The notes below the pieces were generated by a model that was not told the DNA's origin, did no database searches, and worked only from the letters and a program-made list of their open reading frames with translations. A stretch of 16,161 nucleotides of DNA, from the IMG/VR virus record IMGVR_UViG_3300044833_000300, one strand, 5' to 3'. The position numbers were made by a program, and so were the translations under genes. How positions within the stretch are numbered: position 1 is the first letter of the stretch; each line of letters starts with the position of its first letter. Positions 133 to 982 of this stretch are shown piece after piece. This DNA is from a virus.

Positions 133-210
133 AGACGTGTAGCTCAGTTGGCTTAGAGCGCAGTCCTGATAAGACTGAGGGCGGTGGTTCGATCCCACCC
201 ACGTCTACCA
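133..210 (+). tRNA. tRNA-Ile (anticodon GAU), CCA encoded
   Basis: Cloverleaf folded by eye. Acceptor AGACGTG/CACGTCT, U8 A9, D arm GCTC-AGTTGGCTTA-GAGC, anticodon arm CAGTC-CTGATAA-GACTG (loop CU-GAU-AA), variable AGGGC, T arm GGTGG-TTCGATC-CCACC, discriminator A, CCA. The overall sequence is very close to E. coli tRNA-Ile(GAU). Confidence 0.85.
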
Positions 211-264
211 ATTTTGAAGAGCCCGATTTCCAAGGCATGAACGGGCTTTGCTGCAAATGATTTT

Positions 265-339
265 GCCCGCGTCGTCCAACGGCTAGGACGTACGCTCGAT
301 AAGCGTGAAATGAAGGTTCGAGTCCTTCTGCGGGCACCA
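265..339 (+). tRNA. tRNA with anticodon GAU (Ile-like), CCA encoded; identity tentative
   Basis: Acceptor GCCCGCG/TGCGGGC (one G-U pair), positions 8-9 UC (unusual), D arm GUCC-AACGGCUA-GGAC, anticodon arm UACGC-UCGAUAA-GCGUG (loop UC-GAU-AA), variable AAAU, T arm GAAGG-TTCGAGT-CCTTC, discriminator A, CCA. 75 nt. Confidence 0.6.
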
Positions 340-399
340 AAAGTTTTGTACCCATATGGGGGTCGTTTAGCCTCTAAACAGCCGCTGTATGGGTACGTC

Positions 400-475
400 G
401 CTGGGTTAGCTCATTCGGTAGAGCGCATCTTTCGTAAAGATGAGGCGGGGAGATCATAGCTCCCACCCAGCTCCA
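400..475 (+). tRNA. tRNA-Thr (anticodon CGU), CCA encoded
   Basis: Acceptor GCTGGGT/ACCCAGC (G1-C72, C2-G71), U8 A9, D arm GCTC-ATTCGGTA-GAGC, anticodon arm CATCT-TTCGTAA-AGATG (UU-CGU-AA), variable AGGCG, T arm GGGAG-ATCATAG-CTCCC. The T loop is atypical (A54, U58 instead of T54/A58). Discriminator U, CCA. Confidence 0.7.
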
Positions 476-480
476 GATTT

Positions 481-557
481 GCTGCCGTAGTATAGCCCGG
501 TTAGTACGCGTCCTTGGTAAGGATGAGACTTCGGTTCAACTCCGAACGGTAGCTCCA
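481..557 (+). tRNA. tRNA-Thr (anticodon GGU), CCA encoded
   Basis: Acceptor GCTGCCG/CGGTAGC (one G-U), U8 A9, D arm GTAT-AGCCCGGTTA-GTAC, anticodon arm CGTCC-TTGGTAA-GGATG (UU-GGU-AA), variable AGAC, T arm TTCGG-TTCAACT-CCGAA, discriminator U, CCA. Separated from the previous tRNA by the spacer GATTT. Confidence 0.75.
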
Positions 558-562
558 GATTT

Positions 563-635
563 GCACGGGTAGCATAAGTAATGCCCCTGTCTTGTAAACA
601 GGAAGATGTCGGTTCAATCCCGATTCCGTGCTCCA
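563..635 (+). tRNA. tRNA-Thr (anticodon UGU), CCA encoded, short D arm
   Basis: Acceptor GCACGGG/TCCGTGC (one G-U), U8 A9, compact D arm (GCA/UGC with a 7-nt loop, no GG), anticodon arm CCTGT-CTTGTAA-ACAGG (CU-UGU-AA), variable AAGAT, T arm GTCGG-TTCAATC-CCGAT, discriminator U, CCA. 73 nt. Preceded by the same GATTT spacer. Confidence 0.65.
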
Positions 636-817
636 TTAACTGGATTTGCCAGCAGCGTAGCGCATGCGTCTCCAGTGACGGTCGTTACCGCGATTACGGC
701 CTTTGGCTGTGGGCAGTTGACTATCACAGTTCGGGCATGGATGTGAGCCTCATCCACGAATTTCAAAAGTCGGTTCATTGCGCCACTTGGACTGAACGAA
801 TTTTGTTAGATTTTTAT

Positions 818-891
818 TCCCGGATCGTCTAACGGCAGGACGCAGGTCTTTGGAATCTGCTATCGAGGTTCAAATCCTTGTCCGGGAACCA
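818..891 (+). tRNA. tRNA-Gln-like (anticodon UUG), CCA encoded
   Basis: Acceptor TCCCGGA/TCCGGGA (U1-A72), positions 8-9 UC, D arm GTCT-AACGGCA-GGAC, anticodon arm CAGGT-CTTTGGA-ATCTG (CU-UUG-GA, with G at position 37), variable CTAT, T arm CGAGG-TTCAAAT-CCTTG, discriminator A, CCA. Confidence 0.6.
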
Positions 892-907
892 ACTTTAGAT
901 TTTCTAC

Positions 908-982
908 TCCGGTGTCGTCTAATTGGTAGGACGCGGGCCTTTGAAGCCCGTTATATTGGTTCGAGTCCAGTCGCCGGAGCCA
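908..982 (+). tRNA. tRNA-Gln-like (anticodon UUG), CCA encoded
   Basis: Acceptor TCCGGTG/CGCCGGA (U1-A72, one G-U), positions 8-9 UC, D arm GTCT-AATTGGTA-GGAC, anticodon arm CGGGC-CTTTGAA-GCCCG (CU-UUG-AA), variable TTAT, T arm ATTGG-TTCGAGT-CCAGT, discriminator G, CCA. Confidence 0.65.

What the first reader, a model, noticed from the sequence alone, without database searches (positions are those of the whole stretch)
133..982. tRNA array with a complete threonine isoacceptor set and duplicated Ile/Gln species
Three adjacent tRNA-Thr genes (CGU, GGU, UGU) decode all four ACN codons. They are separated by identical 5-nt GATTT spacers, and the same CCA-GATTT-G junction appears a third time at 643-648 in front of sequence that no longer folds as a tRNA. 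There are two GAU-anticodon tRNAs with different bodies. There are also two UUG-anticodon tRNAs differing at loop position 37 (G versus A) and in discriminator base (A versus G). Several have non-canonical features: U8-C9, a 73-nt Thr with a minimal D arm, and a T loop ATCATAG with an A54/U58 swap. Paired variants with altered anticodon loops are what is expected if the phage supplies nuclease-resistant substitutes for host tRNAs targeted by anticodon nucleases. They could also reflect codon-usage compensation.
Basis: partly seen in the sequence, partly recalled or inferred. Interest (0 to 1): 0.5.

Follow-up and report, generated by a model that had tools for sequence, protein, structure and literature searches.

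The report
Huge-phage tRNA cluster with variant twins
Seven genuine tRNA genes form a block conserved across a group of very large bacterial viruses, and standard tRNAs sit beside same-anticodon twins with an altered anticodon loop, which suggests (but does not prove) spare tRNAs that host defences cannot recognise.

Summary
All seven tRNAs (Ile-GAU x2, Thr-CGU/GGU/UGU, Gln-UUG x2) are real and sit at the stated coordinates. One detail is wrong: the third "CCA-GATTT-G junction" at 643-648 is ctgGATTTG, with no CCA before it, and nothing tRNA-like follows it.

The array is not a one-off. The same ordered module (DUF6915-like gene, Ile, Thr x3, Gln x2, then a vault-protein-like gene) recurs in related huge-phage contigs of 160-520 kb.

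The second Ile tRNA has C33 instead of the near-universal U33. This is conserved in its orthologues, often together with U37, and 16 of 21 stem pairs carry compensatory changes. C33 occurs in 24 of 176 distinct tRNAs of this clade, against 1/79 and 1/35 in other phage loci. Canonical and variant-loop pairs recur for Ile(GAU) and Leu(GAG). Gln G37 and the A54/U58 Thr T-loop are also conserved.

The tRNAs are therefore functional. The paired-variant idea gains comparative support, but no nuclease or host is known. Codon supply fits Gln-CAA and fails for Thr-ACA.

In passing: tRNA-Ile #1 lies in frame inside an ORF whose tail is under selection.

The parts
3..260 (+). 3' part of a DUF6915-like ORF that reads in frame through tRNA-Ile #1 and ends in the conserved tail ...NFEEPDFQGMNGLCCK*
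   Evidence: One search lists ORF 3..260. The full gene is L168 3347-3862. The same in-frame arrangement and tail occur in L171, L172, L248, L250 and L170. Tail codons vary at third positions. Pfam DUF6915 scores 30.2 bits.
133..210 (+). tRNA-Ile(GAU) #1. Canonical: loop CUGAUAA, A73, CCA encoded.
   Evidence: 66.6 bits. Orthologues in L169, L171, L172 and others.
265..339 (+). tRNA-Ile(GAU) #2. Glu/Gln-like D arm, anticodon loop UCGAUAA with C33, A73, C4-G69, C29-G41.
   Evidence: 56.7 bits. Nine orthologues show 97.9% pairing and 16/21 pairs with double changes. C33 is conserved.
348..396 (+). Long hairpin ending 3 nt before tRNA-Thr(CGU). Conserved in L169.
   Evidence: I1.: -30.2 kcal/mol, z -5.98; the L169 counterpart has z -4.48.
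400..475 (+). tRNA-Thr(CGU) with T loop AUCAUAG (A54/U58).
   Evidence: The same T arm is in L169, L171 (there on a UGU anticodon) and L172, where the stem covaries.
476..480 (+). GATTT spacer (CCA-GATTT-G).
   Evidence: It fits the clade-wide trailer consensus CCA-R-(R/T)-T-T-T.
481..557 (+). tRNA-Thr(GGU).
   Evidence: 57.5 bits.
558..562 (+). GATTT spacer.
563..635 (+). tRNA-Thr(UGU), 73 nt, with a 5-nt D loop lacking G18-G19.
   Evidence: 56.1 bits. Orthologue in L250 4490-4563, which has a 6-nt D loop and C33.
636..817 (+). Orphan 182-nt spacer. It contains GATTTG at 643-648 and the Gln leader GATTTTTAT at 809-817.
   Evidence: No tRNA or other RNA family. Unstructured. No homologue in related loci. 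The same spacer is 13 nt in L169 and 7 nt in L171.
818..891 (+). tRNA-Gln(UUG) #1: loop CUUUGGA (G37), U1-A72, A73.
   Evidence: G37 is shared by the orthologues in L170, L171 and L250.
908..982 (+). tRNA-Gln(UUG) #2: canonical loop CUUUGAA, U1-A72, G73.
   Evidence: 60.6 bits.

Best explanation
Region 133-982 is a functional, evolutionarily conserved tRNA module of a huge phage (relatives are 160-520 kb). It supplies the phage's own decoders for AUY (Ile), all ACN (Thr) and CAR (Gln) codons, as one block of a larger tRNA complement sorted by amino acid.

PROCESSING (inferred). The genes are probably transcribed as a precursor and cut out at short trailers of the form CCA-R-(R/T)-T-T-T, of which GATTT is one version. 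Those trailers would suit host RNase E-type and RNase P processing.

CHARGING (inferred). Host synthetases probably charge them. The identity nucleotides are kept:
- Ile: A73, C29-G41, C4-G69, GAU, A38.
- Thr: G1-C72, C2-G71.
- Gln: U1-A72.

DISTINCTIVE DESIGN (shown). A tRNA with a standard anticodon loop is kept next to a same-anticodon twin whose loop is changed at non-anticodon positions: C33 in Ile #2 and G37 in Gln #1.

MOST LIKELY FUNCTION (inferred). The twins are insurance against host factors that recognise the standard anticodon loop. Those factors could be anticodon nucleases, or enzymes and toxins that depend on loop modification. C33 blocks t6A37 formation by the E. coli enzyme in vitro, and G36-G37 would instead attract m1G37. 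Translation of phage genes could then continue when host Ile, Thr or Gln tRNAs, or the canonical phage copies, are attacked.
For: GENUINE tRNAs..

PHAGE CONTEXT.
- The window is a whole 16,161-nt JGI contig. It is identical over 8,278 nt to a Logan contig.
- The adjacent vault-like protein has homologues in 462-735 kb 'uncultured phage' assemblies and in 93 IMG/VR stretches.
- PHROG hits to a helicase and NAMPT, with an NMNAT/Nudix plus NAMPT pair downstream.

CONSERVED MODULE. The same order and anticodons occur in L169 (454 kb), L170 (244 kb), L171, L172, L185, L196, L198-L202, L204/205, L248 and L250.

SELECTION ON THE VARIANT. Ile #2 orthologues show 97.9% paired cells, 16/21 pairs with changes on both sides, and 0/500 shuffles as good. 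A73, C29-G41, GAU and A38 are invariant.

C33 IS A CLADE TRAIT. It occurs in 24/176 distinct tRNAs, against 1/79 and 1/35 in other phage loci.

CANONICAL + VARIANT PAIRS. They recur for Ile(GAU) and Leu(GAG).

OTHER CONSERVED ODDITIES. Gln G37 and the A54/U58 T loop.

TRAILER CONSENSUS. Derived from 178 CCA-ending tRNAs.

LITERATURE.
- U33C abolishes t6A37 formation by E. coli TsaBCDE (PMC8887486).
- PARIS AriB cleaves tRNA-Thr(UGU/CGU), and T5 tRNA variants rescue infection (PMC12409363).
- The hypothesis of anticodon-loop mutations in phage tRNAs (PMC10264068).
Against: - The host is unknown, so it cannot be shown that the variant loops differ from the host's, or that any Ile-, Thr- or Gln-directed nuclease exists there.
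- No nuclease, RNA ligase or tRNA-modifying gene was found in the window.
- U33C did not change cleavage by the one nuclease for which I found data, the gamma-toxin (PMC2275089).
- C33 and U37 should cost decoding efficiency and t6A-dependent IleRS charging. The twins might therefore be poor decoders with another role.
- L171, L172 and L248 carry only one Ile(GAU), so the pair is not obligatory.
- The processing and charging steps rest on sequence motifs and textbook knowledge, not on data.
Confidence: 0.45

Rival explanations
1. Plain tRNA supply or translational autonomy. The phage carries a near-complete tRNA set to match its own codon usage, to outlast host tRNA turnover, or to broaden host range. 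The loop differences between twins would tune decoding or modification and would have nothing to do with defence.
For: - CAA makes up 46-48% of Gln codons in the window and two relatives, even at GC3 0.80. That matches UUG-only Gln tRNAs.
- ACC/ACG and AUC dominate and are served by the GGU, CGU and GAU tRNAs.
- Relatives hold Ser/Leu/Tyr blocks with many isoacceptors.
- 178/190 clade tRNAs encode their own CCA.
Against: - ACA is 6% of Thr codons, yet a UGU tRNA is conserved.
- Supply alone does not explain why a second copy with the same anticodon keeps a rare C33, U37 or G37 over long divergence.
Confidence: 0.3
2. Orthogonal pool plus phage-made attack. The phage itself inactivates standard-loop tRNAs, possibly with the DUF6915-like protein that always sits beside the Ile(GAU) or Leu(GAG) pairs. 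It then relies on its C33-type tRNAs, so that translation shifts to phage messages.
For: - A DUF6915 paralogue is embedded next to the canonical/variant pair in both array types.
- The protein has invariant His, Cys, Asp, Glu and Asn residues, which suggests a metal site.
- The AlphaFold model is confident (pLDDT 90) and has no known fold match.
Against: - The phage also keeps canonical-loop copies, which would be self-targets.
Confidence: 0.08
3. The variant tRNAs act outside decoding. They could be decoys or inhibitors that bind a tRNA-directed defence protein, or regulators.
For: - C33 and U37 are expected to weaken decoding and t6A formation (PMC8887486).
- The AriB study raises the possibility, in a sentence that is truncated in the retrieved text, that viral tRNAs act in some way besides rescuing translation (PMC12409363).
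Against: - The Ile identity nucleotides, the anticodon and the encoded CCA are all strictly conserved.
- In dense arrays L243 and L244 the C33 form is the only Ile(GAU) called in the 8 kb examined. That argues it decodes.
Confidence: 0.07
4. The duplicates and odd features are neutral debris: recent duplications drifting towards pseudogenes.
For: The window has an orphan 182-nt spacer. L170 has a degenerate Ile #1 and a weak tRNA-like relic.
Against: Compensatory changes maintain every stem of Ile #2. The odd T loop, G37 and C33 are shared by lineages whose neighbouring proteins are only about 70% identical.
Confidence: 0.03

Closest known systems
Phage T5 tRNA-Lys/Thr/Asn variants that neutralise the PARIS AriB tRNA nuclease (PMC11464382, PMC12409363)
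   Same: Phage-encoded tRNAs with the same anticodons as host targets but with substitutions in the anticodon arm. Thr(UGU) and Thr(CGU) are among the known targets. The window's Thr tRNAs lack U39 of the U36-A-A-U39 determinant.
   Different: - Here the changes are in the loop itself (C33, U37, G37), not at 39-41.
- Canonical and variant copies are kept side by side.
- No defence system, host or resistance assay is available.
Mycobacteriophage cluster C1 tRNAs with anticodon-loop mutations at VapC/MazF sites (PMC10264068)
   Same: Large phage tRNA sets with loop substitutions at non-anticodon positions. Codon usage does not explain the set.
   Different: That study compared the phage with a known host and known cleavage sites. 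Here the contrast is between paralogues within the phage, and the substituted nucleotide is the near-invariant U33.
tRNA complements of huge phages (Al-Shayeb et al. 2020, from my own knowledge; assemblies LR756500/LR756501 appear)
   Same: Genome class of more than 200 kb, many tRNAs, and suppressor tRNAs in some. The same vault-like gene is present.
   Different: As far as I could find, the amino-acid-sorted module, the canonical/variant pairing and the recurrent C33 are not described for them.
tRNA array units / L-arrays of bacteria and plasmids (PMC4758250, PMC8421152, PMC12803027)
   Same: Dense same-strand tRNA blocks with an embedded protein gene. A role under translational stress or in anti-defence has been suggested. 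Glu-like-bodied Ile(GAU) tRNAs, some with C33, occur in such dense arrays on MAG contigs.
   Different: The window holds 7 genes, not the 20 or more that define an array unit. The embedded gene here is DUF6915, not an HNH homing endonuclease.
C33 in cytoplasmic initiator tRNA-Met of multicellular eukaryotes (PMC8887486)
   Same: A natural, conserved C33 in a functional tRNA. It interacts with the t6A37 machinery.
   Different: Those are initiators in eukaryotes. Here C33 is in elongator tRNAs (Ile, Leu, Thr, Gln and others) of phages that infect prokaryotes, whose t6A enzymes reject C33 in vitro (E. coli).

Membership tests
Phage-encoded tRNA gene cluster | Genes that fold and score as tRNAs by independent methods | tested here: met
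   ARAGORN finds 7 genes. Rfam RF00005 gives 52.8-66.6 bits against a threshold of 29.
Phage-encoded tRNA gene cluster | Located in a phage genome | tested here: inconclusive
   - There is no structural or packaging gene in the window.
- The neighbouring gene has homologues in 'uncultured phage' assemblies of 462-735 kb and in IMG/VR contigs.
- PHROG hits and syntenic relatives on 244-454 kb contigs.
- A huge phage is likely. Another large extrachromosomal element is not excluded.
Phage-encoded tRNA gene cluster | Maintained by selection (not pseudogenes) | tested here: met
   Order and anticodons are conserved in more than 12 lineages. Covariation in Ile #2.
Nuclease-resistant phage tRNA substitutes (T5/PARIS type) | Same anticodon as a host tRNA that a defence nuclease cleaves | not testable with these tools
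   Host and host defence repertoire are unknown. Thr(UGU/CGU) are AriB targets in E. coli.
Nuclease-resistant phage tRNA substitutes (T5/PARIS type) | Substitutions at the recognition or cleavage site relative to the sensitive tRNA | tested here: inconclusive
   Within-phage twins differ at positions 33, 37 and 38. All three Thr tRNAs have A39 or G39 instead of U39. There is no host sequence to compare with. U33C had no effect on the gamma-toxin.
Nuclease-resistant phage tRNA substitutes (T5/PARIS type) | Demonstrated resistance and rescue of infection | not testable with these tools
   Needs cleavage assays and infection experiments.
Codon-compensating phage tRNAs | The phage uses the cognate codons more than composition or the host would predict | tested here: inconclusive
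   - Met for CAA: 87/183 Gln codons, against about 33% A-ending in the Lys and Glu codon pairs.
- Not met for ACA (6%).
- Host usage is unknown.
tRNA array unit (at least 20 tRNA genes, at least 2 per kb) | At least 20 tRNA genes in one block | tested here: not met
   7 genes in 850 nt, bounded by protein genes on both sides.
Stop-codon-recoded (code 15) phage with suppressor tRNA | A tRNA with anticodon CUA | tested here: met
   L168 1784-1860, about 1.9 kb upstream of the window start. Also in L169-L172, L185, L204 and L248.
Stop-codon-recoded (code 15) phage with suppressor tRNA | In-frame TAG codons within genes, or genes that look fragmented under the standard code | tested here: not met
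   The 16 window genes are intact under code 11, and TAG ends 4 of them. Reading TAG as sense only creates overlaps with neighbouring genes. The window may hold only non-recoded (early) genes.

The most novel reading that the evidence does not exclude
This clade of huge phages maintains a marked, semi-orthogonal sub-pool of elongator tRNAs. The mark is C33 in place of the universal U33, often with a changed position 37. These tRNAs would be invisible to anticodon-loop-directed enzymes: host nucleases, the t6A/m1G machinery, or a phage-made tRNA-inactivating factor such as the always-adjacent DUF6915 protein. The virus could then switch translation onto its own tRNAs. A variant of this reading is that C33 is edited back to U by a phage enzyme, which would make these tRNAs usable only in infected cells.
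Probability: 0.12. Interest if true: 0.85.

Novelty: new variant of a known kind. Interest (0 to 1): 0.58.

Why it matters
Why phages carry tRNAs is a fifty-year-old question. The current anti-defence answer rests on a few model phages. Here nature supplies matched pairs inside one genome: same anticodon, standard loop versus altered loop. The pairs are conserved across many huge phages, and the change falls on U33, one of the most invariant nucleotides in biology.

This gives a direct experiment. Challenge the twins with anticodon nucleases and with the enzymes that make t6A and m1G, and measure their charging and decoding.

If C33 elongator tRNAs work, they would also be of interest for engineering orthogonal or nuclease-proof translation components.

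Tried and rejected
- SOURCE AND RELATIVES IN IMG/VR. An exact 34-mer of Ile #2 gave 0 hits. A position-33-neutral Ile #2 pattern also gave 0 hits.
- SPACER-DESIGN SCAN. CCAGATTTG...CCAGATTTG in IMG/VR gave 86 stretches of DNA, listed as loci L082-L161. Almost all carry no tRNA at the match and look like chance.
- RELIC tRNA OR OTHER RNA IN 636-817. Rejected. The loose MAFFT alignment to the L170 spacer was not better than shuffles, apart from the Gln leader.
- SMALL PROTEIN IN THAT SPACER. No support.
- RNA-STRUCTURE EXPLANATION FOR THE CONSERVED 211-264 ELEMENT. Rejected: z is -1.0 and variation is at third codon positions.
- TAG RECODING IN THE WINDOW. Not seen.
- OTHER tRNA-RELATED ENZYMES IN THE WINDOW. 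None found.
- CULTURED-PHAGE RELATIVES. There are only 60-81-nt matches to single tRNAs and none to Ile #2. The best is Tunturiibacter (Acidobacteriota) jumbo phage Tunturi_5, which matches Ile #1 at 79%. This is a weak hint about host or habitat only.
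Full report
OBSERVATION

Two independent methods agree on seven + strand tRNA genes.
- ARAGORN Ile(GAT), 265-339 Ile(GAT), 400-475 Thr(CGT), 481-557 Thr(GGT), 563-635 Thr(TGT), 818-891 Gln(TTG) and 908-982 Gln(TTG).
- Rfam's tRNA model scores them 52.8-66.6 bits against a threshold of 29.
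- All seven encode their CCA.
- By standard wobble rules, the three Thr anticodons cover all ACN codons.

- The two GATTT spacers are real. CCAGATTTG occurs exactly twice in the window, against 0.15 expected by chance.
- The Gln pair differs at position 37 (G versus A) and at position 73 (A versus G).
- Thr(UGU) has a 5-nt D loop without the GG.
- Thr(CGU) has the T loop ATCATAG.

One claim fails.
- The 'third CCA-GATTT-G junction' at 643-648 reads ttaactgGATTTG, with no CCA in front of it.
- The 182-nt stretch 636-817 has no tRNA-like signal at Rfam E<=10 or with ARAGORN relaxed or allowing introns.
- It does not fold better than shuffles (z -0.17).
- It matches nothing in related loci.

One important feature was missed. 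The second Ile tRNA has the loop U32-C33-G34-A35-U36-A37-A38, that is C33 where almost all tRNAs carry U (PMC2275089).

CONTEXT

- The window is a complete 16,161-nt JGI contig. Over 8,278 nt it is identical to a Logan contig (L168) that extends 3.6 kb further upstream.
- Downstream genes are: a vault-protein-like gene (MVP shoulder and Vault_3 domains), a PP2C phosphatase, a UvrD helicase, an NMNAT/Nudix plus NAMPT pair and a DUF1599 protein.
- The NMNAT plus NAMPT enzyme pair resembles the NARP2 NAD+ salvage route that phages use against NAD+-depleting defences.
- The vault-like protein has homologues in 462-735 kb 'uncultured phage' assemblies, in 93 IMG/VR stretches, and in 244-454 kb contigs that share the window's gene order.
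- A huge phage is therefore the likely source. No virion gene lies in the window.

THE ARRAY IS A CONSERVED MODULE

- The three closest relatives are L169, L170 and L171. Their vault-like proteins are about 70% identical to the window's.
- All three carry Ile(GAU) once or twice, then Thr(CGU), Thr(GGU), Thr(UGU), then Gln(UUG) twice, in the same order. The array lies downstream of a DUF6915-like gene, with a CUA (amber suppressor) tRNA 1.8-4 kb upstream of the array.
- I used the DUF6915-like protein as an unbiased handle and recovered 66 metagenome loci. They fall into two contexts:
  - the Ile-Thr-Gln block;
  - a Tyr-Leu block, in which a DUF6915 paralogue sits between two Leu(GAG) genes.
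- More distant relatives L001/L065 carry a block of 3 Ser, 6 Leu and 1 Tyr tRNAs, and L002/L004 a smaller Ser/Leu/Tyr block.
- The 'complete Thr set' is therefore one compartment of a tRNA complement sorted by amino acid, not something special to Thr.

THE NON-CANONICAL FEATURES ARE SELECTED

Ile #2 has a Glu/Gln-like D arm (GTCGTCCAA...). Its orthologues carry these loops:

| Locus | Loop | Departure from CUGAUAA |
|---|---|---|
| L169, L170 | CCGAUAA | C33 |
| L173, L198, L199, L201, L204 | CCGAUUA | C33 and U37 |
| L185 | CUGAUUA | U37 only |

Nine distinct sequences keep the cloverleaf:
- 97.9% of cells are paired;
- 16 of 21 pairs show changes on both sides;
- 0 of 500 shuffles did as well, and slid controls gave 33-58% pairing.

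A73, C29-G41, G34-A35-U36 and A38 are invariant, and C4-G69 is present in 7 of 9. From my own knowledge (Nureki et al. 1994), these are E. coli IleRS identity elements, so charging with Ile is the likely outcome.

C33 is a trait of the whole clade.
- It occurs in 24 of 176 distinct tRNAs, against 1/79 and 1/35 in the other phage loci fetched.
- It appears in Ile, Leu, Thr, Gln and Tyr species.
- It is also found in L250 Ile #1 and Thr(UGU), and in an L248 Thr that ARAGORN mislabels as Tyr.

Pairing is systematic.
- Most lineages hold one Ile(GAU) with the loop CUGAUAA and one altered at position 33 and/or 37/38.
- Most Tyr-Leu blocks hold Leu(GAG) UUGAGGU plus UCGAGAG or UUGAGAR.

Other conserved oddities:
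- Gln #1 G37 is shared by the orthologous Gln in L170, L171 and L250. It also occurs in other Gln tRNAs of L172 and L196.
- The ATCATAG T arm is shared by L169, L171 (on a UGU anticodon) and L172, where the stem covaries.
- The small-D-loop Thr(UGU) has an orthologue in L250.

A scan of one genome per species found the same Glu-like-bodied Ile(GAU) in dense arrays of 19-31 tRNAs within 8 kb on MAG contigs. Three have C33 (L239, L243, L244) and two have U33. No cultured-phage record matched Ile #2.

SPACERS

- Across 178 CCA-ending tRNAs of the clade, the trailer after CCA has the consensus R, R/T, T, T, T (A 0.65; T 0.63, 0.78, 0.65). Position -1 of the next tRNA is T in 66%.
- GATTT is one instance of this consensus.
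- From my own knowledge, this resembles RNase E sites (RN|WUU) and the U(-1) preference of bacterial RNase P. I therefore infer, but have not shown, that the short spacers are minimal processing signals.
- Six GATTTK motifs lie on the + strand between 259 and 903. Five of them end 0-4 nt before a tRNA 5' end. The sixth, at 643, precedes no tRNA and stays unexplained.

FUNCTION

Codon usage of 16 window genes (4,449 codons, GC3 0.80) is as follows:

| Amino acid | Codon shares |
|---|---|
| Thr | ACC .45, ACG .41, ACT .08, ACA .06 |
| Ile | ATC .80, ATT .13, ATA .07 |
| Gln | CAA .48, CAG .52 |

- By comparison AAA is .26 of Lys codons and GAA .38 of Glu codons.
- CAA stays at .46-.47 in two relatives with lower GC3. 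Supply and demand therefore match for Gln(UUG).
- They do not match for Thr(UGU). Codon supply cannot be the whole story.
- Supply also does not explain conserved same-anticodon twins that carry a rare C33, U37 or G37.

Published work bears on the alternatives.
- Phage tRNAs with substitutions near a cleavage site defeat tRNA-targeting immunity. [quoted passage not shown] T5 variants rescue infection (PMC12409363).
- The general hypothesis comes from van den Berg et al. (PMC10264068).
- The window's three Thr tRNAs have A39 or G39, not U39. This is only weakly informative.
- U33C abolishes t6A37 formation by E. coli TsaBCDE in vitro (PMC8887486). U37 cannot be t6A at all. The conserved property of the Ile twin may therefore be 'a GAU anticodon without t6A37'.
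- From my own knowledge, G36-G37 in Gln #1 is the TrmD motif for m1G37.
- Against a simple reading, U33C did not alter cleavage by the gamma-toxin (PMC2275089).

I therefore commit, at about 45%, to the twins being insurance against factors that read the standard anticodon loop. The rivals and their confidences are:
- plain supply or translational autonomy: 0.3;
- a phage-made attack combined with an orthogonal pool: 0.08;
- non-decoding decoys: 0.07;
- neutral decay: 0.03.

WHAT IS SHOWN AND WHAT IS INFERRED

- Shown: the genes, their conservation, the covariation, the clade-wide C33 enrichment, the pairing pattern and the codon counts.
- Inferred: transcription as a precursor, processing at the trailers, charging by host enzymes, the modification consequences and the defence-evasion role.

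NOVELTY

- Phage tRNA clusters and anti-nuclease phage tRNAs are known.
- I found no description of a conserved family of C33 elongator tRNAs kept as twins of canonical copies in huge phages, within the limits of the library searched.
- I rate the finding a new variant of a known kind, with interest 0.58.

SEEN IN PASSING

tRNA-Ile #1 lies inside an ORF.
- The DUF6915-like ORF reads in frame through tRNA-Ile #1 and ends in the tail [D/N]-F-x-G-M-N-G-x-C-[C/V]-[K/R/Q]-stop.
- This arrangement is seen in six lineages: window/L168, L171, L172, L248, L250 and L170.
- The tRNA-plus-spacer lengths differ (125-134 nt) but always keep the frame.
- Tail variation is at third codon positions, with all four Gly codons and all three stop codons used.
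- The region does not fold significantly as RNA.
- A tRNA gene nested in frame within a selected coding sequence is unusual and deserves its own follow-up.

DUF6915 itself has a confident helical model with no informative structural match.

Other items:
- the suppressor tRNA upstream of the window;
- a tmRNA in L169;
- a very stable conserved hairpin at 348-396;
- Thr and Gln tRNAs with long variable arms in relatives;
- an extra conserved element with two T-arm-like motifs between Ile #2 and Thr in L169 and L170.

Noticed in passing
window 3-260 (L168 3347-3862); also L171 7321-7872, L172 tail at 1935-1958, L248 3501-4175, L250 3501-3998, L170 1517-2101: tRNA-Ile #1 lies in frame inside the DUF6915-like ORF, which continues to a conserved tail ...[D/N]FxGMNGxC[C/V][K/R/Q]*. 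The frame is kept in six lineages despite indels. Tail codons vary at third positions (all four Gly codons, three different stop codons). A tRNA gene nested in a coding sequence under selection is unusual. L169 is out of frame but keeps MNGLCC.
   Followed up: partly
L168 1784-1860 (1.9 kb upstream of the window start); L169 7049-7125; L170 267-341; L171 3608-3779; L172 817-976; L248 72-145 and 2410-2486: One or two tRNAs with anticodon CUA (amber suppressor) are conserved upstream of the array. The window's own genes show no in-frame TAG, and 4 of 16 end in TAG, so any recoding would concern genes outside the window.
   Followed up: partly
[not shown]
   Followed up: partly
window 348-396; L169 about 9449-9499: A very stable hairpin (-30.2 kcal/mol, z -5.98) ends 3 nt before tRNA-Thr(CGU) and is conserved in L169 (z -4.48). 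It could be a processing or termination element that splits the array.
   Followed up: partly
L169 9312-9501; L170 2195-2329: An extra element conserved between Ile #2 and Thr(CGU), with two GGTTCGAGTCC-like T-arm motifs and a possible 7-bp acceptor-like closing helix (GGAAGTG/CGCTTCC). It is absent from the window. ARAGORN reports only a weak intron-containing call within 9337-9437 of L169.
   Followed up: no
L170 3031-3117, L172 2733-2923, L185 5478, L196 2514-2690, L198 5060, L199 5609, L204 5189, L250 4649-4739: Relatives encode tRNA-Gln and tRNA-Thr of 82-91 nt with long variable arms. That architecture is normally restricted to Leu, Ser, Tyr and Sec tRNAs in bacteria.
   Followed up: no
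L169 2619-3003: ARAGORN calls a tmRNA (tag peptide ANKLNARTNVVPFTVATPRPALAFAAAA) on the 454-kb relative, about 6 kb upstream of its tRNA array.
   Followed up: no
L239, L242, L243, L244, L245 (GTDB MAG contigs): Dense arrays of 19-31 tRNAs within 8 kb on contigs binned as Deltaproteobacteria, Myxococcales, Dehalococcoidia and Thermoplasmata. C33 occurs in 2-7 tRNAs in four of the five arrays and in none of L245's 20. L243 has the same two C33 species (Ile CCGATAA, Leu TCGAGAG). The short contigs may be mis-binned phage or mobile-element DNA. L239 lies on a 4-Mb contig.
   Followed up: partly
window 8546-10955: An NMNAT/Nudix gene next to NAMPT. This is the enzyme pair of the NARP2 NAD+ reconstitution route, which phages use against NAD+-depleting defences. 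It lies about 7.5 kb downstream of the tRNA array and is syntenic in L169 and L170.
   Followed up: no
window 636-817: An orphan 182-nt spacer between Thr(UGU) and Gln #1 (13 nt in L169, 7 nt in L171). It has no RNA family, no significant fold, no coding similarity and no homologue. It begins 7 nt before an isolated GATTTG.
   Followed up: yes
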